From the IMG/VR virus record IMGVR_UViG_3300046504_000195, positions 1-54,933 of that record: a stretch of DNA of 54,933 nucleotides; one strand, written 5' to 3'. Made by a program: the position numbers and the translations under genes. Source of the DNA: a virus (Duplodnaviria > Caudoviricetes). Position 1 is the first letter of the stretch; each line of letters starts with the position of its first letter. This document shows, one piece after another, positions 21,241 to 54,933 of this stretch. The notes beneath the pieces are model-generated. The model was not told the DNA's origin, did no database searches, and saw only the letters and a program-made list of their open reading frames with translations.

Positions 21241-21275
21241 AAAATTAAGTTTTTTGAAAAATAATTTGCATTTTG

Positions 21276-21306
21276 TTTGTATTTATAATTTTAATGCATA
21301 TATTTG
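21276..21306 (+). promoter_or_regulatory. Bacteroidota-type sigmaA promoter, tRNA array 1
   Basis: TTTG-N19-TATATTTG. Confidence 0.75.
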
Positions 21307-21338
21307 CACCGTGTAGTTAAACATTTTTAAAGTAGAAG

Positions 21339-21413
21339 ATGATGAAAAATTTCTTACATATCCAGCCCCAACCACAACATCCGCAAGATGCTGAATGGGA
21401 AAGATATGCTTGA
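21339..21413 (+). CDS. Leader peptide 1 (MMKNFLHIQPQPQHPQDAEWERYA)
   Basis: 9 of codons 7-16 are His/Gln/Pro; lies between promoter and terminator upstream of Pro/His/Gln tRNAs. Confidence 0.8.
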   Translation: MMKNFLHIQPQPQHPQDAEWERYA

Positions 21414-21451
21414 AACTTTCATCGAAGTTGGAAAGAATTAAGTTAAACATG

Positions 21452-21479
21452 AACCCCATTCGCAAGAGTGGGGTTTTTT
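21452..21479 (+). terminator. Attenuator terminator 1
   Basis: AACCCCATTC-GCAA-GAGTGGGGTT-TTTT; 5' arm also pairs with GAATGGG at 21393-21399. Confidence 0.85.
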
Positions 21480-21494
21480 CGTTCTTTAATATAT

Positions 21495-27064: not shown

Positions 27065-27096
27065 TTTAAATTTTTTTAAAAATAATTGAAAAAATA

Positions 27097-27126
27097 TTTG
27101 GAATTAAGAAAACTTTATTATCTTTG
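27097..27126 (+). promoter_or_regulatory. Bacteroidota-type promoter, tRNA array 2
   Basis: TTTG-N18-TATCTTTG. Confidence 0.75.
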
Positions 27127-27170
27127 CCGAGTATTTAATTGAAAGAAACAACGAATTTAATAACAAAACA

Positions 27171-27263
27171 ATGAAAAGGTTATTCGACATATTGGTAGCA
27201 GTCCTCATGGTGGATGTCCTATTATGGGCAGCCGAAGAGGATAAGTTATGCACTGTCGGGTAA
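27171..27263 (+). CDS. Leader peptide 2 (MKRLFDILVAVLMVDVLLWAAEEDKLCTVG)
   Basis: 17 of codons 6-24 are D/E/L/V/A/W. Confidence 0.8.
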   Translation: MKRLFDILVAVLMVDVLLWAAEEDKLCTVG

Positions 27264-27295
27264 TACTTGAATATTACACTCCTTTCTTTTACAAG

Positions 27296-27332
27296 AAAAA
27301 AACCCGACTACTCATAACAGTCGGGTTTTTTT
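27296..27332 (+). terminator. Attenuator terminator 2
   Basis: AACCCGACT...AGTCGGGTT-TTTTT; 5' arm also pairs with GTCGGGT at 27255-27261. Confidence 0.85.
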
Positions 27333-27348
27333 ATGCAAGAAAGGAGAG

Positions 27349-40802: not shown

Positions 40803-40834
40803 TTTGGTGGTCTCGTATTTATATTATATTTTTG
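40803..40834 (+). promoter_or_regulatory. Bacteroidota-type promoter, tRNA array 3
   Basis: TTTG-N20-TATTTTTG. Confidence 0.7.
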
Positions 40835-40873
40835 TCACCTGATATTTTAAACAAACAGATAAAGAATAAAGCA

Positions 40874-40966
40874 ATGATTACATTTGGAACATATTATTTC
40901 GGTAAAAAATCTTATAAAAAGTACTTTATAAGAATCGGGAAATTTATGTCCATTTGTGAAAAATAA
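40874..40966 (+). CDS. Leader peptide 3 (MITFGTYYFGKKSYKKYFIRIGKFMSICEK)
   Basis: 8 of codons 7-17 are Lys/Tyr. Confidence 0.8.
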   Translation: MITFGTYYFGKKSYKKYFIRIGKFMSICEK

Positions 40967-40997
40967 GCAATAATTTTACAGACAATGGATTCTAAGC

Positions 40998-41026
40998 AAA
41001 CCCGATTCAAATGAGTCGGGTTTTTT
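40998..41026 (+). terminator. Attenuator terminator 3
   Basis: AAACCCGATTCA-AA-TGAGTCGGGTTT-TTT; 5' arm also pairs with GAATCGGG at 40932-40939. Confidence 0.85.
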
Positions 41027-41034
41027 ATTTGCAT

Positions 41035-42019: not shown

Positions 42020-42020
42020 C

Positions 42021-45977: not shown

Positions 45978-46013
45978 AATAATTGTAATACATTTGCTTC
46001 TTAAACTATTTCT

Positions 46014-46229
46014 ATGATCATTTTAGAAAGTAAACTCGTCAAAAGAGATTCACCTGCACATAGTGAATACTTAAATTATGAATATGTCGATGGATATTTT
46101 TTAACGATTGACGATTTACAAAGACTCGTAAGAGATTTTCAAGCAGATTGTCATGATGGATTCGTCTCAAATGATAATTCTTATCTTGAAGCATGGTTGA
46201 AGAAGCATGATCAAATTGTAAAGAAATAA
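46014..46229 (+). CDS. Hypothetical protein
   Basis: ORF. Confidence 0.6.
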   Translation: MIILESKLVKRDSPAHSEYLNYEYVDGYFLTIDDLQRLVRDFQADCHDGFVSNDNSYLEAWLKKHDQIVKK

Positions 46230-46244
46230 AATAATTGCATTTTA

Positions 46245-46275
46245 TTGTAACATTTAAGATATTGTTACGTATAAT
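46245..46275 (+). promoter_or_regulatory. ECF-like promoter
   Basis: TTGTAACATTT-N10-TACGTATAAT. Confidence 0.7.
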
Positions 46276-46317
46276 GCAAGGTGTAGTAATAAATAACTGT
46301 AATATAAATTAAATTGT

Positions 46318-48582
46318 ATGAAAAAAAATGTAAAACTTGTTGAAAACTATTATCTCACTACACAGGAAGTTAATAGTACAGTGACTGTAGAAGTCGCAAA
46401 AAAAACAAACCACATCTTCGTGGTTGACGTATCAGGCTCAATGTCTTGGGAACTCCCGAAAATCCGTACACAACTAAAGAACAAACTCTCCAACATCATG
46501 AAGGAAGGTGATACTATTTCTATAGTATGGTTCTCCGGTAATCGTGACTCAGGAATTCTTAAAGAAGAAGTTGAGGTAAAATCACTCAAAACACTTACAG
46601 ACCTGCATGGTGCTATCGACAGATGGCTTGTTCCAATTGGTCTTACTGCATTTCTGAAACCATTACAATTGGTTAAAGAACTTGTTGCAAGAATTAAGAA
46701 AAACAGACCTGATTCAGTGTATTCCCTGATTTTCCTTTCAGATGGTTATAATAACGACTGTCCGTGGAATGAAGTAATCAAGGCACTTAAAGACCTTGAA
46801 ACAGACATAGCATCTTCAACATTCGTTGAATACGGATACTATGCTGACACACAAAAACTCACCCAAATGGCATCTATTTTGGGCGGTGAAAAAATCAGTT
46901 GCAATGGTTTTGATGATTTTGAACCTATTTTCGAAAACAAAATTTCGAAGAGTGCCAAAGGTGGAAAGAAAACCGTTGTGCCAATCACCGACAAATATCT
47001 TTATGATTTTGTATTCAGTGTTGATGGCGGTAGTGTACTTCTGTACAATATCGTTGACGGCAAAGTATTGGTTGGTTCAGATGTAAAAGAAATTTATTTC
47101 TTCTCACCTACAGCCGTTGGTGTTGACGCAGGTAATAACACAACTGATGCTTCTTTGTATGCAGCAATTTATGTGCTTGCAGACAAACTTATGAATGATG
47201 ATGCAGAGAAAATTTTCTATGCTCTTGGTGACAACTATTATTACAAGGTATTAGCCAATGCATTTGGAAAACAGAAACTCAATGCATTCAAAAATGCAAT
47301 CAAAGAATGTGTTGGTGACGCATCAAAAAGATTTCTTGAAGGTGGTCGTTCAGCAATTAAACCCGTTAGTGATAACGCATATTGCTTGATGAACCTTATT
47401 AACGATTTGGGCGGTTTGGAAGGTTGTTTATTCTTCCCAAGTCATCCTGAATTCCAATACAACAGGATTGGTAGAAAGAAAGTTGCAGTTGGAAGTACTC
47501 TTACCGATGCCGACAAGAAAAGACTTGCAGAAGCAAAAAATCTTGACGAAGTGAATAAAATCACCGCAGAACTTGCTGAAAAGAAAGTTGATATTAAATT
47601 TGTCAGCACCGATCCGGATAAAGGTTATCCTCTTACTGATTTGGTATGGAATGAAGAACGTGCCAATTTAAGTGTTCGTATTTTTATTAATGGTGAAGTA
47701 CAACTTCCTACGAACAAATTCAAGATCGAAAAGGTTGCCTCTTTCAAATATAACACCTTTACCCTTGTAAAAGACGGTATTGTGAATGTCGAAAAACTTC
47801 CGGTATTATATTCTGATGAATTAAGTGATCTTTTGTCAAAAAATGGTGTCAAATTCGAACTTGAAGGTTCAAAACTCTCACCGAATGATATGAGGATCAT
47901 CATTGATCTTAACAGTCTTCCTATTGTCAACAGGGGTATGGTTAAAGCAGTTTCAGCAATGCAACTTGCAAAACAAGAATGGGAACTCATTAAGATACAA
48001 GGTGAGAAGAAAGTTTACGATTATTACAAAAAATCATTGTTTCCAAAAACCAGTAAGTCATTCTTGGAATTAGGTTTTACACAGGAAGCAGTCGATTGGC
48101 TGAAAGAAGTCGGTGTCACGGACTTCAACGGCTTTGCTCCAAAGGTAACAAGTGCCGAAGCAACAGACTTCTATATGTCAGTTGTACTTGCTACAAAGAT
48201 CAAAGGTCTGTCAAGTCTTCCAAAGGTCGAAGATGTTGTTGCCAAGATCAAAGCAAAGGGTTCATTGAAATTGAATGAATGGGTTATGGCAGATGCAATC
48301 AAGAAATATCTTGCTCAGACAGAAACTGACATGTATCAAACATTGAATGATGATCAGAAAAAAGGTGTGCTTGAAGTGTATCTCAATACCAAATCAAGTA
48401 TGCTGAATAAAAAGAGAAGGAGTATCCTGCAGGAAATCGCACAGATTAAATTCTCATTGATCCTTTCAAAGAAATGGTTCACTGAATTCAAGAGTTTTGA
48501 TGAAAATAAACTCGCAGTGAACTTTGATGGTCAGGACTTGGACTTTACTTTCGATTTAAGTGAAAAAGAAGAAAAAATCTAA
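46318..48582 (+). CDS. Large vWA-domain protein
   Basis: VVDVSGSM, GLTAF, FLSDGYNN. Confidence 0.85.
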   Translation: MKKNVKLVENYYLTTQEVNSTVTVEVAKKTNHIFVVDVSGSMSWELPKIRTQLKNKLSNIMKEGDTISIVWFSGNRDSGILKEEVEVKSLKTLTDLHGAIDRWLVPIGLTAFLKPLQLVKELVARIKKNRPDSVYSLIFLSDGYNNDCPWNEVIKALKDLETDIASSTFVEYGYYADTQKLTQMASILGGEKISCNGFDDFEPIFENKISKSAKGGKKTVVPITDKYLYDFVFSVDGGSVLLYNIVDGKVLVGSDVKEIYFFSPTAVGVDAGNNTTDASLYAAIYVLADKLMNDDAEKIFYALGDNYYYKVLANAFGKQKLNAFKNAIKECVGDASKRFLEGGRSAIKPVSDNAYCLMNLINDLGGLEGCLFFPSHPEFQYNRIGRKKVAVGSTLTDADKKRLAEAKNLDEVNKITAELAEKKVDIKFVSTDPDKGYPLTDLVWNEERANLSVRIFINGEVQLPTNKFKIEKVASFKYNTFTLVKDGIVNVEKLPVLYSDELSDLLSKNGVKFELEGSKLSPNDMRIIIDLNSLPIVNRGMVKAVSAMQLAKQEWELIKIQGEKKVYDYYKKSLFPKTSKSFLELGFTQEAVDWLKEVGVTDFNGFAPKVTSAEATDFYMSVVLATKIKGLSSLPKVEDVVAKIKAKGSLKLNEWVMADAIKKYLAQTETDMYQTLNDDQKKGVLEVYLNTKSSMLNKKRRSILQEIAQIKFSLILSKKWFTEFKSFDENKLAVNFDGQDLDFTFDLSEKEEKI

Positions 48583-48606
48583 AACTCTTCAAATCAGATA
48601 TTTAAG

Positions 48607-48636
48607 AACCTCAGAAAATTTTCTGAGGTTTTTTTT
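48607..48636 (+). terminator. Intrinsic terminator
   Basis: AACCTCAGAAAATTTTCTGAGGTT-TTTTTT. Confidence 0.88.
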
Positions 48637-48656
48637 GTAAAATAATTGAAAAAAAG

Positions 48657-48687
48657 TTTGGTGGTAATGAAACATTTTATATCTTTG
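48657..48687 (+). promoter_or_regulatory. Bacteroidota-type promoter, tRNA array 4
   Basis: TTTG-N19-TATCTTTG. Confidence 0.78.
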
Positions 48688-48754
48688 CCACGTATTTAAT
48701 AGAAAACGAACTTATAATAGTTTTAATTAAGAGATCACAATTAATAAATAAATA

Positions 48755-48886
48755 ATGAAAACGTACAGGCACATATCAGCAATCATTACATCGACCTCAA
48801 GTCGCAACGGGATATCTATATTCTGTTCAGACTTTACAGGCAGAAATAATGGAATTGATACGGGTTATGGTTTTCTTATGAGATAA
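48755..48886 (+). CDS. Leader peptide 4 (MKTYRHISAIITSTSSRNGISIFCSDFTGRNNGIDTGYGFLMR)
   Basis: 26 of codons 7-34 are T/S/I/R/N/G/F/C. Confidence 0.8.
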   Translation: MKTYRHISAIITSTSSRNGISIFCSDFTGRNNGIDTGYGFLMR

Positions 48887-48907
48887 ACTTAAAAGTTTTA
48901 GTAAACC

Positions 48908-48939
48908 AAAAACCCGAATCGCAAGTTTCGGGTTTTTTT
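48908..48939 (+). terminator. Attenuator terminator 4
   Basis: AAAAACCCGAA..GCAA..TTCGGGTTTTTTT; 5' arm also pairs with GATACGGGTT at 48857-48866. Confidence 0.85.
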
Positions 48940-48956
48940 GTTGTTCTTTCAGATAT

Positions 48957-49027
48957 GCCGAGATAGTCCAAAGGTAGAACTTCTGTGTGGTATTCAGAGG
49001 ATACGAGTTCGAGTCTCGTTCTTGGCT
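48957..49027 (+). tRNA. tRNA-Thr(GGT)
   Basis: GCCGAGA/TCTTGGC; loop GTGGTAT. Confidence 0.8.
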
Positions 49028-49035
49028 CAAATAAA

Positions 49036-49137
49036 ATAAGGTTATAACCTTATATCTTATGAATATAAGATTATTGCCTTAATAAAATATAACTCTTACA
49101 GGTTATAAACACAATTAATAACCCAAGCAGGTTATTA
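49036..49137. repeat. Cluster of ATAACC/GGTTAT palindromes
   Basis: Perfect palindrome ATAAGGTTATAACCTTAT plus three related inverted repeats. Confidence 0.6.
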
Positions 49138-49147
49138 TCTGTAAGAC

Positions 49148-49159
49148 GATCTTTGACAT
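49148..49159 (+). promoter_or_regulatory. boxA-like element
   Basis: GATCTTTGACAT. Confidence 0.55.
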
Positions 49160-49171
49160 GCTGGTAATTTT

Positions 49172-49256
49172 GTCGGGATGCCTGAGTGGTTGAAGGGGAC
49201 GGTCTGCAAAACCGTTTGCTACGCACGCATGGGTTCGAATCCCATTCCCGACTCCA
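49172..49256 (+). tRNA. tRNA-Cys(GCA) with long variable arm
   Basis: GTCGGGA/TCCCGAC-TCCA; loop CTGCAAA. Confidence 0.88.
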
Positions 49257-49258
49257 AT

Positions 49259-49334
49259 GTTCCTGTCGTACTATAACTGGTAAGACCGCACCCTGTTAAG
49301 GTGAACAATGTAGGTTCGAATCCTACCGGGAACG
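49259..49334 (+). tRNA. tRNA-Asn(GTT)
   Basis: GTTCCTG/CGGGAAC-G; loop CTGTTAA. Confidence 0.82.
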
Positions 49335-49339
49335 CAAAT

Positions 49340-49412
49340 TGTCTCGTAACTCAGTTGGTAGAGTATCACACTGATAATGTGGAAGTCGTCAGTTCAAGTC
49401 TGACCGAGACAA
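49340..49412 (+). tRNA. tRNA-Ile(GAT)
   Basis: TGTCTCG/CGAGACA; loop CTGATAA. Confidence 0.92.
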
Positions 49413-49422
49413 CTAATAATAT

Positions 49423-49503
49423 AGTGAGGTGGATGAATGGTTTAGTCACCTGTCTGATACACAGGGTCGCAAGACGATGTGGGTTCGAGTCCCATCTTCA
49501 CTA
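49423..49503 (+). tRNA. tRNA-Ile(GAT) with long variable arm
   Basis: AGTGAGG/CTTCACT; loop CTGATAC; arm GTCGCAAGAC. Confidence 0.85.
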
Positions 49504-49532
49504 CAACCTGACGAGGTTCTTGTTGCAACATG

Positions 49533-49619
49533 AGCAACTGAAAGTTTATAGCATAGTGGCAATGCTGCCCATTGAAAAGGGTGAAGATTGGTTCGAATCC
49601 AATTAAACAATCGGTTGCT
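49533..49619 (+). ncRNA. tRNA-like RNA with extended acceptor stem and 8-nt anticodon loop
   Basis: AGCAACTGA-AA-GTTTA / TAAAC-AA-TCGGTTGCT; normal D and T arms; loop ATTGAAAA. Confidence 0.6.
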
Positions 49620-49624
49620 ATTTT

Positions 49625-49711
49625 GGAGAGTTGTCTGAGTGGTCTATAGAGGCGGTCTTGAAAACCGTTGGGCGTTCGTTCGCCCCGTGGGTTCGAATCC
49701 TACACTCTCCG
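49625..49711 (+). tRNA. tRNA-Ser(TGA)
   Basis: GGAGAGT/ACTCTCC-G; loop CTTGAAA; long arm. Confidence 0.93.
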
Positions 49712-49784
49712 CAAAGTCAAGTGCAATGGATTACATCACTTGACCTAAACATTGAAAAGGAAGTCATGAGCCAATTCAGTGTAA

Positions 49785-49938
49785 TAGTTCTGGGTTGCAT
49801 AAGAGGCTGCCCTAATGTTCAGTAGAAAATTTTGTGCACGCATTTGGCAATGCGGTTATGTGCATTATCGACTCCGAGACATTTATGATAGTTGTAATAC
49901 TAACGGGAAACGTGAGTAGAAGGCTCACACCAGAACTT
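49785..49938 (+). ncRNA. Structured ncRNA candidate
   Basis: Closing stem AGTTCTGG/CCAGAACT; inner TGCAC..CGCATT/AATGCG..GTGCA and GTGAGT/GCTCAC. Confidence 0.45.
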
Positions 49939-49942
49939 AAAC

Positions 49943-50015
49943 GGAGCAGTAGCAAAGGTGGTCTATGCACCGGACTGAAAATCCGGCTATGTTGGTTCGA
50001 CTCCAACCTGCTCCA
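49943..50015 (+). tRNA. tRNA-Phe(GAA)
   Basis: GGAGCAG/CTGCTCC; loop CTGAAAA. Confidence 0.92.
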
Positions 50016-50024
50016 CCGATTTTT

Positions 50025-50143
50025 CGATTTTTAGGCAAATCATCCTTCCTTCTTTTAGGACTATCCACGTCCTATGGGTTGCACGAATGCAAAATTCCCC
50101 CTGCCTCAGAGCAGGTGAATCCAAGAGGTTCAGCAAAAAGTCG
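50025..50143 (+). ncRNA. Four-hairpin structured ncRNA candidate
   Basis: CGATTTTT/AAAAGTCG closes TAGGAC/GTCCTA, TTGCA/TGCAA, CCTGC/GCAGG, TGAATC/GGTTCA. Confidence 0.5.
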
Positions 50144-50149
50144 TGGCAC

Positions 50150-50221
50150 GCAGGTGTAGCACAAAGGTTAGTGTGTCAGACTTCCAATCTGATGATGTGG
50201 GTTCGATTCCCATCACCTGCT
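50150..50221 (+). tRNA. tRNA-Gly(TCC)
   Basis: GCAGGTG/CACCTGC-T; loop CTTCCAA. Confidence 0.93.
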
Positions 50222-50275
50222 CAAAAAAGGTCTGAGGGAGTCCTTTAAAGGTATAAATAACCTGTCCCTCTCCAT

Positions 50276-50348
50276 AGTGGTGTGGCGCAATGGTTGGCGC
50301 AGGACTCTTATAAGGTCAAGGTTGGGGGTTCAAGTCCCTTCACCACTA
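50276..50348 (+). tRNA. tRNA-Ile(TAT)
   Basis: AGTGGTG/CACCACT; loop CTTATAA. Confidence 0.85.
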
Positions 50349-50353
50349 CAAAT

Positions 50354-50427
50354 GCATCGGTGGCTCAGTTGGTCAGAGCAATTGACTGTTAATCAATGGG
50401 TCGCAGGTTCGAATCCTGCCCGGTGCG
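50354..50427 (+). tRNA. tRNA-Asn(GTT)
   Basis: GCATCGG/CCGGTGC-G; loop CTGTTAA. Confidence 0.93.
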
Positions 50428-50499
50428 CAAAAATAATTTATTAAGTATTGATTTTGTAATCTATTTTGTTTACTTTTGAAGTTTACTTTATTTAATTAA

Positions 50500-50685
50500 A
50501 TGGAAGTTAATCTTGAAAAACTAAAAGATGAGAATATCAAATTGATTAAAAAAATCAAAAATTCTCGATTCACTAACGGTCATAGATACAAACAATGCTA
50601 TTTTGAACCGGATAAAAAAGTACCAAACAACTATAATTGTTGTTTACCTTGTGATATTTATTGTCCAAATAGAATAAAAAATTAA
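50500..50685 (+). CDS. Small Cys-rich hypothetical protein
   Basis: ORF. Confidence 0.5.
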   Translation: MEVNLEKLKDENIKLIKKIKNSRFTNGHRYKQCYFEPDKKVPNNYNCCLPCDIYCPNRIKN

Positions 50686-51035
50686 TGAAGAAATACTTAT
50701 TTGTAGGCGAAAGAAGAAGTCCAACTGCAATACGAATGAATGTCACATGGGTTGACAAACGCCTTTGTGCCGGACACCTTTCAAAAGCCGTAGAAAACCT
50801 TGGAATTGATTGGAATGAATGTGCCTTTTTAAATGTGTTTGAAGATGATATACGGGACATCAGAGTATTTAAAGGTGTAGTTATAGCAATGGGAAGAAAC
50901 GTTGAGAAAGTGCTTAAAAAAGAACAAATCAGGCATGAATTCATTTATCATCCTGCAACACGTGGAGCAGTAAGAAATATACAAAAATACAAGGATCACG
51001 TAAAAGAAAGAATAGGACACATAGTATTGTCATGA
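50685..51035 (+). CDS. Hypothetical protein, possible UDG-like fold
   Basis: LFVGE..FLNV..VIAMGR..IYHPA. Confidence 0.55.
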   Translation: MKKYLFVGERRSPTAIRMNVTWVDKRLCAGHLSKAVENLGIDWNECAFLNVFEDDIRDIRVFKGVVIAMGRNVEKVLKKEQIRHEFIYHPATRGAVRNIQKYKDHVKERIGHIVLS

Positions 51036-51226
51036 CAAATAAAAAAAAGAAAAAACAATATGACAGAAAACGTTATCTTGAAAAGAAACAATATTTCAAC
51101 GATAAAAGTAAAAAGTGGGCAGATGCTCATAAAGAATTTCTACAAGAATATCAAAAGGAATGGAATGAAAATCATAAAGACTATCAAAAAAACTATTATT
51201 TGGAACACAAGAAATTGCCGGAATAA
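51032..51226 (+). CDS. Basic helical protein (resembles an HNH N-terminal region)
   Basis: K/Y/W periodic repeats; overlaps tRNA-Thr. Confidence 0.5.
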   Translation: MTNKKKKKQYDRKRYLEKKQYFNDKSKKWADAHKEFLQEYQKEWNENHKDYQKNYYLEHKKLPE

Positions 51227-51289
51227 CTCAATTGGTAGAGTATCTGATTCGTATTCAGAATGTTGCAGATTCGAGTTCTGCTTCTGGCT
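51217..51289 (+). tRNA. tRNA-Thr(CGT)
   Basis: GCCGGAA/TTCTGGC; loop TTCGTAT. Confidence 0.85.
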
Positions 51290-51302
51290 CAAAAATAAAA
51301 AT

Positions 51303-51758
51303 ATGAGAAAACCGAATACGTGTTGCTCTGATTGTGGTAAACCATTATATCGTAGACCATGCGAACTTATTAAGTGGAAAAAGGTTTATTGTAAAAATTG
51401 TCAGAAACTACATATGAATGATGCAGCAAAAGTGAAAAATGATAGTCTCTATGTTGCATATATTGCAAAATGGAAAGCAGGTTTGGTTGATGGAATGAAA
51501 GGCGAATATCAAATATCTCGACATTTAATAAGGTATTTATTTGAAAAATTTGGTAATAAATGTAGCAAATGTGGTTGGAATGAAGTAAATCCATTTACTA
51601 AAAAAATACCTTTAGAAACTGAACACATTGATGGCGATTATAGAAATAACAAAGAAGAAAATTTGGATTTATTATGTCCTAATTGTCATAGTTTAACACC
51701 AACATATAAAGGTGCAAACAGAGGTAAAGGAAGAAAAGAAAGAAAAAAGTATGCCTGA
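51303..51758 (+). CDS. HNH endonuclease
   Basis: LETEHIDGDYRNNKEENLDLLCPNCH; start moved to MRKPN. Confidence 0.88.
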   Translation: MRKPNTCCSDCGKPLYRRPCELIKWKKVYCKNCQKLHMNDAAKVKNDSLYVAYIAKWKAGLVDGMKGEYQISRHLIRYLFEKFGNKCSKCGWNEVNPFTKKIPLETEHIDGDYRNNKEENLDLLCPNCHSLTPTYKGANRGKGRKERKKYA

Positions 51759-51826
51759 TTAACTTTAATTGGTAGAGTGCCACACTTGTAATGTGGAAGT
51801 TGGGGGTTCGAGTCCCTCATTAGGCT
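51753..51826 (+). tRNA. tRNA-Thr(TGT)
   Basis: GCCTGAT/ATTAGGC; loop CTTGTAA. Confidence 0.92.
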
Positions 51827-51837
51827 CAATAAATAAT

Positions 51838-51920
51838 GCCGATATGGTTCAGTGGCGACAACACCAGTTTTGTAAACTGGCACTTAATAGACATCGGGGG
51901 TTCGAATCCCTCTATCGGCT
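51838..51920 (+). tRNA. tRNA-Thr(TGT), long variable region
   Basis: GCCGATA/TATCGGC; loop TTTGTAA; 15-nt extra region. Confidence 0.82.
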
Positions 51921-51935
51921 CAAATACAATTAGTT

Positions 51936-52160
51936 ATGGAAAGACTACCAAGTGAAAATCATGAAGAAAAATTCTTGAAGAAATTACAATCAAGATTTAA
52001 AGAGTATGTTGATCTGACACCATACTTAGTAAAGGTTGCAATTGTAACAGTAATAATATTTATTGCATCTTCATTAATTTGGTATAGTTTTTTTCGTATT
52101 GACAAAAATAAGCCAATATATAAAAACATTATCGAGCAATTTGAATCAAAGAAAAAATGA
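51936..52160 (+). CDS. Small membrane protein
   Basis: One TM helix. Confidence 0.6.
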   Translation: MERLPSENHEEKFLKKLQSRFKEYVDLTPYLVKVAIVTVIIFIASSLIWYSFFRIDKNKPIYKNIIEQFESKKK

Positions 52161-52405
52161 AATTATTGATAAAATTTCCAGATCAATCAACATCATTTAC
52201 ATATGGTGTTGAATTTGGCAGGCTTTTGGAAAAAATTGAAAGAGGGGATGATGTCATAATGAATAATGGTTTTCCTGTAAGAATAGAAAATGTCAATTTA
52301 TTGAAAGAAACATGTCAGAAATTCGGATATATTCCTATCTTTGGCAAAAAATATTTTAATGAATGGATTGAATTTGTAGGCATTAAACAATCAAATAAGA
52401 ATTAA
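52157..52405 (+). CDS. Hypothetical protein
   Basis: Start overlaps upstream stop. Confidence 0.65.
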   Translation: MKLLIKFPDQSTSFTYGVEFGRLLEKIERGDDVIMNNGFPVRIENVNLLKETCQKFGYIPIFGKKYFNEWIEFVGIKQSNKN

Positions 52406-52406
52406 A

Positions 52407-52955
52407 ATGGGCAAAAAGGAAATCCGTAAAAACAAAATCCCGCATCAATACTTTGTGACCAAAGGATTCGGAGTTGATCCTTTTGAGAAACATGCAGGTG
52501 CATATCACATGGCATTGTATGATGCAGGGATAGCAAATTTTAATATTCAAACATATAGTTCAGTACTTTCACCACACTCTGAATTGGTTACTCTTGATGA
52601 AATTGATTTGGATGAATATGGCAGTGAAATGAAATGCATAATGTCTTGTGAATTCGGTGAATTTGGTGAATACATCAGTGCCGGAATAGCATACGCATGG
52701 ATGTACAAAGATCAGGAGTTCGATAAAAAGTTTGGTGGAATAGTTTGCGAGGTCCACGGAAAATTTTCAATTGACAGTCTTGAAGAAAGACTTTATATGG
52801 TTTTAAATAATTTGTATGAAAAAACATATAAAGATAAAGGTCTGTTTCTTGGTGAACCTCAAGTAATAACACAAGGTGGTTCAGTACCTAATAATATAAG
52901 GTATGGTTGTGCATTGGTTTCACTTTGTTTTGTAAATTATATAATTGTAGAATGA
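52407..52955 (+). CDS. pdaD: Pyruvoyl-dependent arginine decarboxylase
   Basis: IP.QYFVTKG.G, ALYDAGIANFNIQTYSSVL (SS self-cleavage site), ISAGIAYA, GIVCE. Confidence 0.82.
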   Translation: MGKKEIRKNKIPHQYFVTKGFGVDPFEKHAGAYHMALYDAGIANFNIQTYSSVLSPHSELVTLDEIDLDEYGSEMKCIMSCEFGEFGEYISAGIAYAWMYKDQEFDKKFGGIVCEVHGKFSIDSLEERLYMVLNNLYEKTYKDKGLFLGEPQVITQGGSVPNNIRYGCALVSLCFVNYIIVE

Positions 52956-53374
52956 AAACTATAATTTGTAAGAACTGTAATAATCCAATTGGTTTTAAAA
53001 ATTGGAGAAAACAACAATTTTGTAATAAAAAATGCGAAGGTGAATATAAATCTAAGATGAAATATCTGGATTATTTAAATAATAATGAAAAATATTGTAA
53101 AGCATCATATGCACTTAGAGCCATAAAACCACATATATTAAAAGAACAAAATAATAAGTGTGCAATTTGTAATAATGAAAATATTTGGAATAATAAATTT
53201 TTGGTATTCATTATGGATCATATTGATGGTAACGCATCTAACAATAAACGTGAAAATGTCAGATTAATTTGTCCTAACTGTGATAGCCAATTAGATACAT
53301 ATAAATCAAAAAATAAAAATTCGGCAAGAAAAGAAAGATATTTACAATCAAAAAATCATGCACCCGTAGCATAA
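52952..53374 (+). CDS. HNH endonuclease
   Basis: IMDHIDGNASNNKRENVRLICPNC. Confidence 0.88.
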   Translation: MKTIICKNCNNPIGFKNWRKQQFCNKKCEGEYKSKMKYLDYLNNNEKYCKASYALRAIKPHILKEQNNKCAICNNENIWNNKFLVFIMDHIDGNASNNKRENVRLICPNCDSQLDTYKSKNKNSARKERYLQSKNHAPVA

Positions 53375-53433
53375 CTGGACAATGCATCACTCTTCTAAAG
53401 TGGTGATTGTGGGTTCGAGTCCCACCGGGTGTA
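53360..53433 (+). tRNA. tRNA-Arg(TCT)
   Basis: GCACCCG/CGGGTGT; loop CTTCTAA. Confidence 0.92.
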
Positions 53434-53449
53434 CAAATAAATTTTGAAT

Positions 53450-53593
53450 ATGGCAACAGCAATTTGTCCTAAGTGTGGAAAAGTAATTTATGTACCTGAT
53501 AGTCCGGTACAATTGGAAAAAGATTTTGTAATTTGTTGTGATGAAGTAATATACATACCAAGTGAAGTACAAGATAGTAAAGATGAAGCATAA
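53450..53593 (+). CDS. Small Zn-ribbon-like protein (47 aa)
   Basis: MATAICPKCGK..ICCDE. Confidence 0.55.
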   Translation: MATAICPKCGKVIYVPDSPVQLEKDFVICCDEVIYIPSEVQDSKDEA

Positions 53594-53774
53594 ATTGGAA
53601 TACACTGATAATAAGGTGTTTATTTCATTAAATGGTTATGCTTTTATTGATGAAGGCGGTCAGACAATAATAATTGTGTACGGAGAAGGTCGCAGAGACG
53701 ATATGTCGAAGTATTTAAATGAAAATGGTGACAGAATAGGAATAAAGTATAAGATAATTAATTTGCTCTCATAG
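53583..53774 (+). CDS. Hypothetical protein
   Basis: ORF. Confidence 0.5.
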   Translation: MKHKLEYTDNKVFISLNGYAFIDEGGQTIIIVYGEGRRDDMSKYLNENGDRIGIKYKIINLLS

Positions 53775-53836
53775 TTTAATGGATAGAATTGGGGTTTCCT
53801 AAACCTTAGATTCGGGTTCGATTCCCGGTGAGAGTA
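53765..53836 (+). tRNA. tRNA-Arg(CCT)
   Basis: GCTCTCA/TGAGAGT; loop TTCCTAA. Confidence 0.9.
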
Positions 53837-53852
53837 CTAAAACAACACTTTT

Positions 53853-54050
53853 ATGAGAACAAGTGAAGTAAATAAAAAGATGAGAGAACTTAAAAAAGTT
53901 GGTTTGCTTGATAATTTTACAAGAGTGCAAAAAAAACTTTTAAAACAATTAATAGAAAACCAACAAGATTTTATCATCATGGAGAATGACCGGAAAGAAA
54001 CCGAAAAATCTCTTTTTAAAGCAAAAGGTTTGGAATTACATTTAAAATAA
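53853..54050 (+). CDS. Hypothetical protein
   Basis: ORF. Confidence 0.55.
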   Translation: MRTSEVNKKMRELKKVGLLDNFTRVQKKLLKQLIENQQDFIIMENDRKETEKSLFKAKGLELHLK

Positions 54051-54063
54051 ATTTATACAACAA

Positions 54064-54291
54064 ATGGAAATAATACTTAATATCGAAATTTCTGACTCTG
54101 AAATAATTCTTCTCAAAAGTTTTAAAGAGCATGAACGAAAAATATTTAATGAATATCATTCCATCGCATGGGAACTCGAATATAAAGGAATATTGTTATC
54201 GACAACTCTTAATGAACAAGGCAAAGAAACAAATAATCGATACTTTCTACTTTCAGGACTTGGTAAAGAAATTATAAAAGAAATTATATGA
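54064..54291 (+). CDS. Hypothetical protein (winged-helix-like)
   Basis: LEYKGIL..YFLLSGLGKE. Confidence 0.55.
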   Translation: MEIILNIEISDSEIILLKSFKEHERKIFNEYHSIAWELEYKGILLSTTLNEQGKETNNRYFLLSGLGKEIIKEII

Positions 54292-54299
54292 ACAAGAAT

Positions 54300-54372
54300 G
54301 CCTCTGTAGTTCAATGGATAGAACGTGAGTCCTCGGAACTCACTGTTGGGGGTTCGAGTCCCTCCAGGGGTA
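54300..54372 (+). tRNA. tRNA-Arg(TCG), C33
   Basis: GCCTCTG/CAGGGGT; loop CCTCGGA. Confidence 0.87.
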
Positions 54373-54375
54373 CAA

Positions 54376-54669
54376 ATGAAAACAACTGAATTAATACCAG
54401 TGTTTGTTGACCAATTGCCTCTTGAAGTCGAAGAAGGTAAGATGTATATTACAGATAAATATGGTATATCTGTCCATCTTTGTGCTTGTGGTTGTGGTGA
54501 AAAAACTTTTCTACCGTTCAGACATATAATTGAGGGTCAAGAGCATGGATGGGTTCATTCAATTCAAGACGGTAAAGTTTCTACAACACCGTCAATAGGT
54601 AATTGGTTGTGGGAGAATCCTTATCATGCACATTATTTTATAGTGAATAACAAAATAGTTTGGTGTTAA
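54376..54669 (+). CDS. DUF6527-like protein
   Basis: HLCACGCGEK..PSIGNW..HYFI..I.W. Confidence 0.7.
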   Translation: MKTTELIPVFVDQLPLEVEEGKMYITDKYGISVHLCACGCGEKTFLPFRHIIEGQEHGWVHSIQDGKVSTTPSIGNWLWENPYHAHYFIVNNKIVWC

Positions 54670-54672
54670 TAT

Positions 54673-54747
54673 GCACCCGTAGCATAATTGGATTAGTGCA
54701 TTGGTCTACGAAACCAAAGGTTGTGAGTTCGAATCTCACCGGGTGTA
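54673..54747 (+). tRNA. tRNA-Arg(ACG)
   Basis: GCACCCG/CGGGTGT; loop CTACGAA. Confidence 0.92.
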
Positions 54748-54789
54748 CAAAACAAAACTCAAACGTATTTATATTAAAGGTTTGAAACG

Positions 54790-54933
54790 ATGATTGAATA
54801 TAATGAAAATAAATTACGTCAAGTAGTTGCGGAATGTAATACGTATAGGGATGTTTTGCATAAATTTGAAAGAAATGAATCGGGTGCATCATATAAGACA
54901 CTACATAGACGTTTAAATGAATGGAAGATTGAT
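54790..54933 (+). CDS. Probable HNH endonuclease, N-terminus only (3'-partial)
   Basis: MIEYNENKLRQVVAECNTYRDVL..YKTL..WKID resembles the N-terminus of the 27505 HNH. Confidence 0.55.
   Translation, partial: MIEYNENKLRQVVAECNTYRDVLHKFERNESGASYKTLHRRLNEWKID

What the first reader, a model, noticed from the sequence alone, without database searches (positions are those of the whole stretch)
48755..48939. Attenuator 4: longest leader for the most diverse array
33 of 43 residues (26 of codons 7-34) are T/S/I/R/N/G/F/C, the eight identities found downstream. One Cys matches one tRNA-Cys. All three Ile codons are used, including ATA x3 for tRNA-Ile(UAU). ACG/ACA/ACC match Thr CGT/TGT/GGT, and AGG/CGC/AGA match Arg CCT/ACG/TCT. 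Antiterminator: GATACGGGTT/AACCCGAATC (9 of 10). Promoter flanks (AAAATAATTGAAAAAA..TTTGG; TATCTTTGCC..GTATTTAAT) are near-identical to cassette 2, suggesting duplication and retuning of one cassette.
Basis: partly seen in the sequence, partly recalled or inferred. Interest (0 to 1): 0.87.

Follow-up and report, generated by a model that had tools for sequence, protein, structure and literature searches.

The report
Leader-peptide switch for phage tRNA genes
A giant phage puts a 43-codon test reading frame and a transcription stop signal in front of a block of tRNA genes, built so that the tRNAs are probably made only when ribosomes run short of exactly those tRNAs, a textbook bacterial control device used here in an undescribed way.

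Summary
Window 48755-48939 holds a 43-codon ORF, then an intrinsic terminator 17 nt before the first of at least 16 tRNA genes (Thr, Cys, Ile, Ser, Phe, Gly, Asn, Arg). 33 of 42 post-initiator residues belong to those eight identities (expected 17.4, p=1e-6). Three other cassettes in the window repeat the design: a Pro/His/Gln leader, an Asp/Glu/Val/Leu/Ala/Trp leader and a Lys/Tyr leader, each before the matching array. The window is a fragment of a roughly 320-365 kb uncultured phage with Bacteroidota-type promoters.

All 18 distinct homologous leaders analysed keep the frame, the amino-acid set (79% in frame, 31-60% in other frames), the terminator and an in-ORF segment complementary to the terminator's 5' arm. 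That segment covaries with the arm (p=5e-5). Leader codons are unusually diverse and track the isoacceptors present downstream. Eight arrays in three unrelated phages show nothing similar.

Best reading (0.8): ribosome-mediated attenuation that gives on-demand, self-limiting tRNA synthesis. Seven literature searches found no description of leader-peptide attenuators for tRNA genes. Open points are missing RNA data, an unresolved no-translation state, and an unexplained conserved box after the terminator.

The parts
48604..48637 (+). Terminator-like hairpin plus T run ending the upstream VWA-domain gene (46318-48582). It isolates the cassette as its own transcription unit.
   Evidence: Inverted repeat and T run are read. 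Self-match on the opposite strand. Only sub-threshold terminator-type Rfam hits.
48639..48687 (+). Promoter: an A-rich upstream element (AAAATAATTGAAAAAA), TTTG at 48657-48660 and TATCTTTG at 48680-48687. This fits the Bacteroidota-type -33/-7 layout; that consensus is recalled, not tested.
   Evidence: Strict pattern match at 48657-48687. The same pattern marks all four cassettes and no site inside the arrays. The layout is conserved in relatives. 80% identical to the cassette-2 promoter.
48755..48886 (+). Leader ORF of 43 codons plus stop. It is the sensor, carrying 33 codons for the eight amino acids whose tRNAs lie downstream.
48756..48780 (+). Region 1: the 5' part of the ORF, predicted to pair with the region-2 neighbourhood (48850-48876) and enclose the sensor codons.
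   Evidence: own versus swapped partners -11.7 versus -10.1 kcal/mol, p=0.004. One search does not confirm that this pairing dominates in the absence of translation.
48856..48867 (+). Region 2: the antiterminator 5' strand inside the ORF (codons 34-38), complementary to the terminator's 5' arm.
   Evidence: Conserved position in 18 of 18 homologs. Covariation p=5e-5.
48908..48939 (+). Intrinsic terminator (regions 3 and 4): an 11-pair stem followed by 7 T.
   Evidence: -14.4 kcal/mol here; -14.0 to -19.8 kcal/mol in 18 of 18 homologs.
48957..54748 (+). Regulated tRNA array: Thr(GGT), Cys, Ile x2, an odd tRNA-like gene, Ser, Phe, Gly, Ile(TAT), Asn, Thr x3, Arg x4. HNH endonuclease ORFs and an arginine decarboxylase ORF are interspersed. 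The array is probably cut by the window end, because relatives continue with Gly(GCC) and Ser(GCT).
   Evidence: The first tRNA starts 17 nt after the T run, which leaves no room for a separate promoter.
49148..49164 (+). Conserved box GATCTTTGACATGCTGG ending 7 nt before tRNA-Cys. Function unknown.
21272..21482 (+). Cassette 1: promoter, leader ORF 21339-21413 (MMKNFLHIQPQPQHPQDAEWERYA) and terminator 21451-21482, followed by a Pro/His/Gln array (21495-22489).
27079..27336 (+). Cassette 2: promoter, leader ORF 27171-27263 (MKRLFDILVAVLMVDVLLWAAEEDKLCTVG) and terminator about 27300-27336, followed by an Asp/Glu/Val/Leu/Ala/Trp array (27372-30836).
40803..41027 (+). Cassette 3: promoter, leader ORF 40874-40966 (MITFGTYYFGKKSYKKYFIRIGKFMSICEK) and terminator 40998-41027, followed by a Lys x3/Tyr array (41165-42020), which ends at its own terminator 42021-42044.

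Best explanation
This is a ribosome-mediated (leader-peptide) transcription attenuator that controls a phage tRNA gene array.

Proposed sequence of events:
- Transcription starts at the Bacteroidota-type promoter (48639-48687), and a ribosome begins to translate the 43-codon leader.
- If all aminoacyl-tRNAs for Thr, Ser, Ile, Arg, Asn, Gly, Phe and Cys codons are plentiful, the ribosome runs over region 2 (48856-48867) to the stop codon. The terminator (48908-48939) then folds, and RNA polymerase stops 17 nt before the first tRNA gene.
- If any of these tRNAs is scarce, the ribosome stalls inside the sensor stretch (roughly codons 7-25). Region 2 stays free and pairs with the terminator's 5' arm as soon as that arm is made. 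The terminator cannot form, and the array is transcribed.
- The products are the very tRNAs that were limiting, so the circuit limits itself. It acts as an OR gate over eight amino acids and at least a dozen isoacceptors.

Three sister cassettes do the same for Pro/His/Gln, for Asp/Glu/Val/Leu/Ala/Trp and for Lys/Tyr. Together the four leaders watch 19 of the 20 amino-acid classes.

Shown: the anatomy, its conservation, the covariation and the codon matching. Inferred: leader translation, stalling, readthrough and the feedback.
For: 1. Four independent leader-array matches in one window. Own-set residues are 9/23, 21/29, 10/29 and 33/42, with p=1.2e-4, 7.8e-5, 3e-3 and 1e-6. The true pairing scores 73 and is the best of 24 permutations (next best 56). 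The leaders rank 2, 1, 2 and 3 of 348 small ORFs.

2. Every array identity is represented in its own leader: 3/3, 6/6, 2/2 and 8/8.

3. Conservation. VWA-gene relatives gave 27 loci, of which 25 were examined.
- 19 carry the cassette-4 leader just upstream of the same array; these are 17 distinct sequences plus 2 duplicates.
- Two more contigs yielded the leader in a pattern scan.
- Three deeper relatives lack both leader and array.
- In-set residues are 597/751 in frame, against 0.31-0.60 in the five other frames, with 0 stops against 5-71.
- Replacement residue types stay in the set 75/124 times against 50.7 expected, p=8e-6.

4. Terminators of -14.0 to -19.8 kcal/mol are present in 18/18.

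5. The antiterminator lies at ORF nt about 95-140 in 18/18. Own duplexes average -13.4 against -11.2 kcal/mol for swapped partners, permutation p=5e-5. 17/18 are reached by at most 7 of 200 shuffles. Compensatory variants occur in L014 and L068.

6. Five complete 321-365 kb relatives keep the same four-block order. Leaders for cassettes 1, 2 and 4 are present in 6/6 genomes (window included), and for cassette 3 in 5/6. Cassettes 1-3 carry the same in-ORF antiterminator; 15/17 are reached by at most 5 of 200 shuffles.

7. Codon level.
- 32/42 leader codons are readable by the window's own array.
- 22 distinct codons occur among the 33 in-set codons, against 17.0+-1.7 expected, P=0.0026. Rare codons are over-used, P=0.0025.
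- 12/14 array anticodons have a Watson-Crick codon in the leader, against 8.6 expected, P=0.02. Over 20 cassettes the count is 132 against 102.8+-4.6, reached by 0/5000 resamplings.
- Among variable isoacceptors, presence of the tRNA goes with presence of its codon: odds ratio 3.0, Fisher p=3e-4, with the genomes not phylogenetically independent.

8. The first tRNA starts 17 nt after the T run. Strict promoter-pattern matches mark the four cassettes, and none lies inside the arrays.

9. Folding.
- The free RNA gives terminator probability 1.0.
- A ribosome modelled at codons 10 and 20-24 gives antiterminator probability 0.87-0.94.
- On transcripts cut before the 3' arm, the 5' arm pairs with the ORF in 18/18 homologs.

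10. Controls. In 8 arrays from three unrelated tRNA-bearing phages, the best upstream small ORF has p=0.16-1. The same scanner recovers three of the four leaders here. It misses cassette 2 because that cassette's first tRNA stands alone under the scanner's gap rule.
Against: - No RNA or ribosome data exist for this element. The leader has no Shine-Dalgarno sequence. From recall, that is normal for Bacteroidota, but it means translation is only inferred from conservation.
- Specificity is imperfect. 10 of 43 residues are off-set. The Lys/Tyr leader also holds 17/29 residues of the cassette-4 set. Trp and Cys occur in more than one leader.
- Arg(TCG) and Cys(GCA) have no Watson-Crick codon in this leader.
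- In genome G005 the arrays hold Phe and Pro tRNAs that their leaders do not mirror.
- Codon coverage is not above resampling in G002 and G004 cassette 4, with P=0.76 and 0.32.
- Equilibrium folding keeps the terminator favoured at every modelled stall position in 9/18 homologs, so the switch must be kinetic.
- Truncated-transcript folding gives the antiterminator even without a ribosome (0.66-0.91). A trp-like 'no translation means termination' state is therefore not supported.
- In that same model the zero value for a ribosome at the stop codon follows from how the model was built.
- One homolog, L012, has an antiterminator duplex no better than shuffles: 131 of 200 shuffles reach it.
- A conserved box sits between terminator and array at Asp and Cys. 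If it is a promoter, it would bypass the attenuator.
- Whether one transcript spans the array of at least 5.8 kb, with its HNH ORFs, is unknown.
- The statistics on homologs are not fully corrected for shared ancestry.
Confidence: 0.8

Rival explanations
1. The attenuator is real, but it governs only part of the output. The conserved GTTCTTTGACATGYTGG box, or other unrecognised phage promoters inside the array, drives most tRNA synthesis, and the leader only trims early or basal expression of the proximal genes.
For: The box ends 6-7 nt before tRNA-Asp and tRNA-Cys. In the five complete relatives, the matches with 0-1 mismatches lie only at those two places. Short variants precede tRNA-Pro, tRNA-Thr and the tmRNA, and the tmRNA has no leader or recognisable promoter. 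The array is at least 5.8 kb long with inserted HNH genes.
Against: The box does not fit the TTTG/TAnnTTTG layout, and no strict promoter match lies inside the arrays. The leader carries Arg codons (AGG, CGC, AGA), and the matching tRNAs lie 4.4-5.9 kb downstream at the far end of the array. That makes sense only if the leader controls them too. The box is not used elsewhere in the genomes as a general promoter would be.
Confidence: 0.07
2. The element is an RNA-only sensor. The structured leader RNA binds uncharged tRNAs directly through codon-like triplets, as a T-box does, and the open frame is a by-product.
For: The core of the leader is conserved at the nucleotide level with fixed codons: AGT 18/18, ATA 15/15, AGA 16/16, GGC 16/16. 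The ORF region folds into conserved hairpins, with z=-3.5 for the whole leader.
Against: The amino-acid set is frame-specific, 0.79 against 0.31-0.60. Start and stop codons are kept in 18/18. Synonymous changes occur (CGC/CGT, AAC/AAT, GGA/GGG/GGT, four Thr codons), and replacements stay within the set. No T-box or other Rfam family reaches threshold. A single RNA reading 8 identities and about 14 anticodons has no precedent, whereas a ribosome does this naturally.
Confidence: 0.05
3. The terminator is a constitutive, partly leaky one that only sets the level or insulates the array. The small ORF is translated without any sensing role, and its composition match reflects shared history or sequence bias.
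For: No expression data exist. Equilibrium folding keeps the terminator favoured in 9/18 homologs whatever the stall position.
Against: It does not explain four independent set matches. It does not explain set-preserving substitutions, antiterminator covariation or codon and isoacceptor tracking. It also does not explain the absence of such ORFs before 8 arrays in other phages.
Confidence: 0.04
4. The small ORFs encode micro-proteins with their own function, for example a membrane or regulatory peptide, and merely sit upstream of the tRNA arrays.
For: The peptide core (..SRNGNGIFCS..GRN..) is conserved. The cassette-2 leader is hydrophobic.
Against: The four peptides are unrelated to each other in sequence but share the promoter-ORF-antiterminator-terminator skeleton. 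Their compositions are exactly what the downstream tRNAs predict. The C-terminal parts vary freely in length and sequence.
Confidence: 0.03

Closest known systems
Leader-peptide transcription attenuators of amino-acid biosynthetic operons in Enterobacteria (trpL, hisL, thrL, ilvL/ivbL, leuL, pheL). The description is recalled; Thr_leader and His_leader are in the Rfam copy searched.
   Same: Both have a promoter-proximal short ORF packed with control codons, an intrinsic terminator, and an alternative pairing between an ORF-proximal segment and the terminator's 5' arm. In both, ribosome position decides the outcome. Multi-amino-acid leaders exist there too (thr: Thr and Ile; ilv: Ile, Leu and Val).
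   Different: Here the regulated genes are tRNA genes, not enzymes, so the output is the sensed molecule itself. One leader samples 8 amino acids with 22 different codons. Four cassettes divide 19 amino acids among them. The element belongs to a phage and uses Bacteroidota-type signals. There is no sequence or Rfam membership: Thr_leader scores 16.5 bits against a gathering score of 55, and His_leader 20 against 49, the latter hit lying on the upstream gene's terminator. The behaviour without translation may also differ.
The pheM leader of the E. coli pheST operon, attenuation of an aminoacyl-tRNA synthetase operon (recalled, not checked here).
   Same: A leader-peptide attenuator that controls a component of the translation apparatus in response to the supply of charged tRNA.
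   Different: It senses one amino acid and regulates protein genes of a cell. It does not regulate tRNA genes and is not in a phage.
T-box riboswitches (recalled).
   Same: They sense tRNA status and act through a terminator/antiterminator choice upstream of translation-related genes.
   Different: A T-box binds one uncharged tRNA directly through a specifier codon and a conserved T-box sequence, with no translation involved. Neither feature was found here. Frame-specific conservation points to a ribosome.
Phage tRNA arrays as codon compensation or as replacement for host tRNAs lost to tRNA-targeting defences. Sources: PMC10264068 (search listing with the start of the abstract, plus a term search of the text) and PMC11555353 (search listing with the start of the abstract only).
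   Same: Large phage-borne sets of tRNA genes, thought to keep translation going when host tRNAs are unsuitable or destroyed.
   Different: Those works, as far as seen, concern what the tRNAs do, not how their synthesis is controlled. 'Attenuat', 'leader peptide', 'terminator' and 'promoter' each occur 0 times in the text of PMC10264068. The present element adds a demand sensor in front of the arrays.

Membership tests
Ribosome-mediated (leader-peptide) transcription attenuator | A short ORF in the 5' leader, between the promoter and the regulated genes, kept open in relatives | tested here: met
   The 43-codon ORF is 48755-48886. Open ORFs of 39-48 codons lie at the same place in 18/18 distinct homologs, against 5-71 stops in other frames. 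Translation itself was not shown.
Ribosome-mediated (leader-peptide) transcription attenuator | Control codons: enrichment of codons whose charged tRNA reports on the regulated function | tested here: met
   33/42 in-set residues, p=1e-6. The four cassettes each match their own array. Ranks are 1-3 of 348 small ORFs.
Ribosome-mediated (leader-peptide) transcription attenuator | An intrinsic terminator between the leader ORF and the first regulated gene | tested here: met
   Stem 48908-48937 plus T run. Present in 18/18 homologs at -14.0 to -19.8 kcal/mol. The first tRNA starts 17 nt after the T run.
Ribosome-mediated (leader-peptide) transcription attenuator | An antiterminator: a segment at or near the ORF end that pairs with the terminator's 5' arm, mutually exclusive with the terminator | tested here: met
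   9/10 complementarity here. Conserved position in 18/18. Own versus swapped partners p=5e-5. Compensatory variants occur in L014 and L068. The same feature is in cassettes 1-3.
Ribosome-mediated (leader-peptide) transcription attenuator | An anti-antiterminator (1:2 pairing) that gives termination when the leader is not translated | tested here: inconclusive
   A 5'-ORF to region-2 pairing is predicted and weakly covaries (p=0.004). However, truncated-transcript folding favours the antiterminator even without a ribosome (0.66-0.91).
Ribosome-mediated (leader-peptide) transcription attenuator | Readthrough rises when the cognate charged tRNA is limiting | not testable with these tools
   No RNA-holding sequencing run was listed. 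This needs a reporter, Term-seq or cell-free assays.
Rfam amino-acid operon leader families (Thr_leader, His_leader and the like) | A match to the family covariance model at its gathering score | tested here: not met
   The gathering-threshold scan of the whole window gave only tRNA and tmRNA. The relaxed scan of 48600-48960 gave Thr_leader 16.5 bits (55 needed) and His_leader 20 bits (49 needed), both terminator-only likeness.
T-box riboswitch | Stem I with a specifier codon plus the conserved T-box antiterminator sequence | tested here: not met
   No T-box hit at the gathering threshold, nor at E<=10 in 48600-48960.
Phage tRNA array (tRNA island of a large phage) | Clustered tRNA genes in a virus genome | tested here: met
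   45 tRNA genes plus a tmRNA lie on one strand within 33 kb. T4-type portal and terminase are present. The window is an IMG/VR virus record estimated 17% complete. Relatives are 321-365 kb complete genomes.

The most novel reading that the evidence does not exclude
A family of uncultured jumbo phages of about 320-365 kb carries a four-channel tRNA homeostat. Four leader peptides together monitor decoding of 19 amino-acid classes at the resolution of individual isoacceptors. Each switches on only the tRNA array that can repair the shortage it detects. The phage would then sense in real time the depletion of host tRNAs, whether caused by its own takeover or by anticodon-nuclease defences, and answer with a matched replacement set. 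The Lys/Tyr channel sits next to an Rnl1-type RNA ligase, which fits such a counter-defence role. The design may also be modular: a duplicated skeleton with the codon insert rewritten when tRNAs move between arrays. One relative lost the Lys/Tyr leader, and its neighbouring leader gained Tyr codons.
Probability: 0.45. Interest if true: 0.93.

Novelty: new variant of a known kind. Interest (0 to 1): 0.88.

Why it matters
Why phages carry tRNA genes has been argued for about fifty years, according to the abstract start of PMC10264068 (seen in the listing). The main ideas are codon compensation, replacement of degraded host tRNAs, and escape from tRNA-cleaving defences. A demand sensor wired directly to the arrays says something new: these phages treat tRNA supply as a variable to be measured and corrected, class by class.

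It also makes the question testable. The leaders predict which shortages induce which arrays.

For gene regulation, this would be the first leader-peptide attenuator found here's searches whose output is the sensed molecule itself. It is also the most multiplexed one: eight amino acids and 22 codons in a single leader.

For engineering, the cassettes are compact (about 300 nt), apparently modular reporters of codon-specific decoding capacity, and they use Bacteroidota-type signals.

Tried and rejected
- Close relatives among deposited phages. Megablast of 46000-54933 and blastn of the leader region found nothing. tblastn with the VWA protein gave at best 33% identity. There is no cultured or annotated relative to consult.
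- Expression. No RNA holder was listed for 46300-52300. The holders were DNA contigs, mostly labelled peat metagenomes, and only one held at least half of the sampled words.
- Rfam. The gathering scan and the relaxed scan gave no family for the leader.
- Alignment. The MAFFT alignment A1 mis-registers the terminator arms, so it was not used for pair counting. Covariation was instead tested by own-versus-swapped duplex energies. For cassettes 1-3 the own-versus-swapped differences are small (0.5-0.9 kcal/mol, n=5-6) and were not tested for significance.
- Folding. Equilibrium folding with a modelled stalled ribosome was inconclusive: a terminator-disfavouring stall window of several codons appears in 8/18 homologs, a single stall codon in 1/18 (L016), and none in 9/18.
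- Pattern scan of viral contigs. It returned 24 stretches. 17 not seen before were analysed, and 3 of these (L062, L066, L076) were chance matches without leader, terminator or tRNAs.
- A fifth leader before the tmRNA/Leu/Leu/Met block was looked for and not found. The 1-mismatch copy of the promoter 16-mer at 33714 lies at the start of a bL12 gene.
- The conserved box after the terminators was examined as a possible promoter and left unexplained.
- Outgroups. The Prevotella phage Lak-A1 region, Stenotrophomonas phage RAS14 and phage RB51 gave no leader-like ORFs. This covers three phages only and does not show the design is absent elsewhere.
- Literature. Seven searches and two text look-ups found nothing on leader-peptide attenuation of tRNA genes. 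The library lacks most subscription journals, and supplements were closed, so prior description cannot be excluded.
- Slips. One search translated from 48756 (one base off) and one search used wrong start coordinates for cassettes 1-3. Both were corrected.
Full report
**What is there.** The window is one IMG/VR virus record, estimated 17% complete. It encodes a T4-type portal and large terminase, a ribonucleotide reductase and an Rnl1-type RNA ligase. From 21495 to 54748 it carries 45 tRNA genes and a tmRNA, all on the + strand (ARAGORN; Rfam).

The finding's interval 48755-48939 runs from the ATG of a 43-codon ORF (48755-48886) to the last T of an intrinsic terminator (stem 48908-48937 with 11 pairs, then a T run). 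The first tRNA gene, Thr(GGT), starts at 48957, 17 nt after the T run.

Upstream, the VWA-domain gene (46318-48582) ends with its own hairpin and T run (48604-48637). Next comes a promoter-like region: an A-rich 16-mer, TTTG at 48657 and TATCTTTG at 48680. That layout matches the Bacteroidota -33/-7 consensus as I recall it. The whole leader folds well below shuffled controls (-47.7 kcal/mol, z=-3.5, 0 of 200 shuffles as good).

**Check of the observation.**
- 33 of 43 residues are T/S/I/R/N/G/F/C, and 26 of the 28 codons 7-34 are in the set.
- There is a single Cys codon.
- Ile codons are ATA x3, ATC and ATT x2. Thr codons are ACG, ACA and ACC. Arg codons are AGG, CGC and AGA.
- GATACGGGTT is complementary to AACCCGAATC at 9 of 10 positions.
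- An exact 16-mer is shared with cassette 2, and the two promoter regions are 80% identical over 75 nt.

Against the amino-acid composition of the window's long ORFs, 33 of 42 post-initiator residues compare with 17.4 expected (p=1e-6). Among all 348 ATG ORFs of 20-60 aa in the window, the leader ranks third for this set. The two above it are out-of-frame ORFs elsewhere in the window, not upstream of any tRNA array.

**The same design four times.** Upstream of each tRNA block there is a promoter of the same type, a short ORF, a terminator and then the array.

| Cassette | Leader peptide | Array downstream | Own-set residues | p |
|---|---|---|---|---|
| 1 | MMKNFLHIQPQPQHPQDAEWERYA | Pro/His/Gln | 9/23 | 1.2e-4 |
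| 2 | MKRLFDILVAVLMVDVLLWAAEEDKLCTVG | Asp/Glu/Val/Leu/Ala/Trp | 21/29 | 7.8e-5 |
| 3 | MITFGTYYFGKKSYKKYFIRIGKFMSICEK | Lys/Tyr | 10/29 | 3e-3 |
| 4 | the finding | eight identities | 33/42 | 1e-6 |

The true leader-array pairing scores 73 and is the best of the 24 possible assignments; the next best scores 56. The four leaders rank 2, 1, 2 and 3 of 348 small ORFs for their own sets. Every identity in an array occurs in its own leader.

The tmRNA/Leu/Leu/Met block in the middle has no leader. Specificity is not perfect. The Lys/Tyr leader also holds 17/29 residues of the cassette-4 set, and Trp and Cys appear in more than one leader.

**Relatives.** The neighbouring VWA protein retrieved 27 loci from viral contigs at 56-78% identity, on contigs up to 365 kb. 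I examined 25 of them; L022 and L023 were truncated matches and were left out.
- 19 carry a cassette-4-type leader directly upstream of a Thr/Cys/Ile/Ser/Phe/Gly/Asn/Arg array. These are 17 distinct sequences plus 2 duplicates, L013 and L026.
- L004 and L009 end before any tRNA, and the first search missed L011. The contigs of L004 and L011 gave the leader in a later pattern scan.
- L018, L025 and L027, the most distant relatives, have only a lone tRNA-Leu after the gene and no leader.

The pattern scan added further contigs with the leader. Three of the 17 new stretches analysed were chance matches.

In the 18 distinct sequences analysed (window included):
- the ORF is open (39-48 codons);
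- in-set residues are 597/751 (0.79) in frame, against 0.31-0.60 in the other five frames, which carry 5-71 stops;
- at columns whose majority residue is in the set, 75 of 124 minority residue types are also in the set, against 50.7 expected from single-base neighbours (p=8e-6).

The core (..SRNGNGIFCS..GRN..) is also conserved at the codon level, with synonymous variation at some positions (CGC/CGT, AAC/AAT, GGA/GGG/GGT, four Thr codons).

**Terminator and antiterminator.** All 18 sequences have a strong terminator (-14.0 to -19.8 kcal/mol). In all 18, the best duplex between the terminator's 5' arm and the ORF falls in the last quarter of the ORF, 0-26 nt before the stop codon. 17 of 18 duplexes are reached by at most 7 of 200 shuffled ORFs. 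L012 is the exception, with 131 of 200.

Pairing each arm with its own ORF gives -13.4 kcal/mol on average, against -11.2 with other genomes' ORFs (permutation p=5e-5). This is covariation. Explicit compensatory versions occur in L014 (GACTCG with CGAGTC) and L068 (CCCGACAC with GTGTCGGG). Cassettes 1-3 have the same arrangement in the window and in five complete relatives. In 15 of these 17 cassettes the duplex is reached by at most 5 of 200 shuffles.

The region-2 neighbourhood is also predicted to pair with the first 40 nt or so of the ORF, often including the AUG. Own-versus-swapped energies are -11.7 against -10.1 (p=0.004).

**Five complete genomes.** G001-G005 (321-365 kb, CheckV 100%) keep the same block order. 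That order is [Pro His Gln], [Asp Glu Val Leu Ala Trp], [tmRNA Leu Leu Met], [Lys Tyr], [Thr Cys Asn Ile Ser Phe Gly Arg ... Gly Ser], followed in G001-G004 by an amber-suppressor tRNA.

Leaders for cassettes 1, 2 and 4 are present in 6/6 genomes (window included). The cassette-3 leader is present in 5/6 and in most of the other loci. G005 has lost the Lys tRNAs and the cassette-3 leader. It keeps a lone tRNA-Tyr, and its cassette-2 leader alone has gained two Tyr codons. This is a single but suggestive case of retuning.

**Codons.**
- 32 of 42 leader codons can be read by tRNAs of the window's own array. The two codons with no reader in the window (AGT, GGC) correspond to Ser(GCT) and Gly(GCC). 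In complete relatives those tRNAs lie further down the same array, beyond the window's end.
- The 33 in-set codons use 22 different codons, against 17.0+-1.7 expected from the window's codon usage (P=0.0026). They lean to rare ones such as ACG, GGG, CGC, AGG and TCG (P=0.0025).
- 12 of 14 distinct anticodons in the array have a Watson-Crick codon in the leader, against 8.6+-1.5 under synonymous resampling (P=0.02). Over 20 cassettes in five genomes the total is 132 against 102.8+-4.6, reached by 0 of 5000 resamplings.
- G002 and G004 cassette 4 are not above expectation (P=0.76 and 0.32). The window's codon usage was applied to all genomes.
- For isoacceptors that vary among genomes, presence of the tRNA goes with presence of its codon in the leader (odds ratio 3.0, Fisher p=3e-4). 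The genomes are not independent, and there are counter-examples such as CCC and GTC.

**How it most likely works.** The parts and their geometry are those of a classical ribosome-mediated attenuator. A ribosome that reads the leader without delay covers region 2 and sits at the stop codon while the terminator is made, so transcription ends before the tRNAs. A ribosome held up at a control codon in the body of the ORF leaves region 2 free to pair with the terminator's 5' arm, and the array is transcribed.

Folding models agree in part.
- For the window, the free RNA gives the terminator with probability 1.0.
- A ribosome modelled at codons 10 and 20-24 gives the antiterminator with probability 0.87-0.94.
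- At codons 5, 15 and 26 or later the terminator returns.
- Across homologs, the equilibrium model flips at several stall positions in 8/18, at one position in 1/18 and nowhere in 9/18. As in known attenuators, the choice must be kinetic.
- On transcripts cut before the terminator's 3' arm, the 5' arm pairs with the ORF in 18/18.
- The same calculation gives the antiterminator without any ribosome as well (0.66-0.91). I therefore cannot say that untranslated leaders terminate, as they do in trp.
- The zero value for a ribosome at the stop codon follows from how the model was built.

Because the products are the tRNAs whose shortage is sensed, the circuit should limit itself. That step, like translation, stalling and readthrough, is inferred.

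**What speaks for one transcription unit.** The first tRNA follows the terminator by 17 nt (13-34 nt in cassettes 1 and 2). The strict promoter pattern has ten matches in the window, all on the + strand. Four of them are the cassette promoters, and none lies inside an array. The leader contains Arg codons whose tRNAs lie 4.4-5.9 kb downstream.

A caveat is the conserved box GTTCTTTGACATGYTGGAAWTTT, which ends 6-7 nt before tRNA-Asp and tRNA-Cys. In the five complete genomes, the matches with 0-1 mismatches lie only at those two places. Short variants precede tRNA-Pro, tRNA-Thr and the tmRNA. Its role is open: a processing signal, a pause site or a second start site.

**Controls outside the family.** The same unbiased scanner takes the array identities and scores the best small ORF in the 400 nt upstream. 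In the window it recovers the leaders of cassettes 1, 3 and 4 (p=1.2e-4, 2.9e-3, 4.5e-5) and finds nothing before internal sub-blocks. It misses cassette 2 because that cassette's first tRNA stands alone under the scanner's gap rule.

In eight arrays from a Prevotella Lak phage region, Stenotrophomonas phage RAS14 and the T4-like phage RB51, the best p-values are 0.16-1. The small annotated CDSs in front of RAS14 tRNAs are not enriched in the cognate residue.

**Comparison with what is known.** The element works like the amino-acid operon attenuators of enterobacteria and like the pheST leader (both recalled). It is not a member of any Rfam leader family or of the T-box family.

The differences are the target (tRNA genes), the degree of multiplexing, the partition of the amino acids among four cassettes, and the phage setting. 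Seven full-text searches returned nothing on leader-peptide attenuation of tRNA genes. The eLife paper on phage tRNAs and tRNA-targeting defences (PMC10264068) does not contain the words attenuat-, leader peptide, terminator or promoter. The one co-occurrence of 'tRNA operon' with leader peptides (PMC3082878) is unrelated. The library lacks most subscription journals, so priority cannot be guaranteed.

**Verdict.** I rate it a new variant of a known kind of regulator. Confidence in the mechanism is 0.8 and interest is 0.88.

Noticed in passing
window 49148-49164 and 27349-27365; short variants at 21482-21494, 48944-48956 and 33195-33211: A conserved box GTTCTTTGACATGYTGG(AAWTTT) ends 6-7 nt before tRNA-Cys and tRNA-Asp. 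In five complete relatives, the matches with 0-1 mismatches lie only at those two places. Shorter GTTCTTT-N6-7 forms abut tRNA-Pro, tRNA-Thr(GGT) and the tmRNA. The 5' part of the cassette-2 leader (27179-27195) resembles the box. Function unknown.
   Followed up: partly
window 33729-34109 (+): A phage-encoded ribosomal protein bL12 (Pfam Ribosomal_L12 1.3e-23 plus the dimerisation domain) lies inside the tRNA island, next to a tmRNA (33210-33564; Rfam 104.6 bits).
   Followed up: partly
window 38298-39407 (+): An Rnl1-type RNA ligase (PF09511, 3.1e-19) lies 1.5 kb upstream of the Lys/Tyr cassette. From recall, T4 Rnl1 repairs tRNA-Lys cut by an anticodon nuclease, so the neighbourhood hints at tRNA repair and replacement.
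   Followed up: no
window 52407-52955 (+): A pyruvoyl-dependent arginine decarboxylase gene (PF01862, 1.5e-26) sits inside the array, just before the four tRNA-Arg genes.
   Followed up: no
window 19559-20764 (-): A radical-SAM protein with a lysine-2,3-aminomutase C-terminal domain lies next to the Pro/His/Gln cassette. From recall, this domain pair also occurs in the EF-P modifying enzyme EpmB.
   Followed up: no
window 27505-28155, 29318-29728, 51060-51758 (+); G002 about 103957-104103: HNH homing-endonuclease genes are inserted inside the tRNA arrays. In one relative, one lies between the cassette-1 terminator and its first tRNA.
   Followed up: partly
window 49542-49612; relatives G001 253714, G003 203185, G004 151233, L081: ARAGORN reports tRNA-like genes with four-base anticodons: (tgaa) here; (gcgc), (taag), (cgaa) and (aaga) in relatives. 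Rfam scores the window copy at 34.3 bits. They could be pseudogenes, intron-bearing genes or quadruplet decoders; this was not examined.
   Followed up: no
G001 282907, G002 148036, G003 237313, G004 159544 (beyond the window's end): An amber-suppressor tRNA (anticodon CTA) closes the cassette-4 region in four complete relatives. This may point to TAG recoding in part of the genome.
   Followed up: no
G005 27971-28400 and 36721-36831 (minus strand): One relative lost the Lys tRNAs and the Lys/Tyr leader and keeps a lone tRNA-Tyr behind a hairpin. Its Asp/Glu/Val/Leu/Ala/Trp leader is the only one with two Tyr codons.
   Followed up: partly
window 41028-41164: The spacer between the cassette-3 terminator and the first tRNA-Lys is long (138 nt). 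It carries four to five copies of a TGAAAAAC-like repeat, unlike the other cassettes.
   Followed up: no
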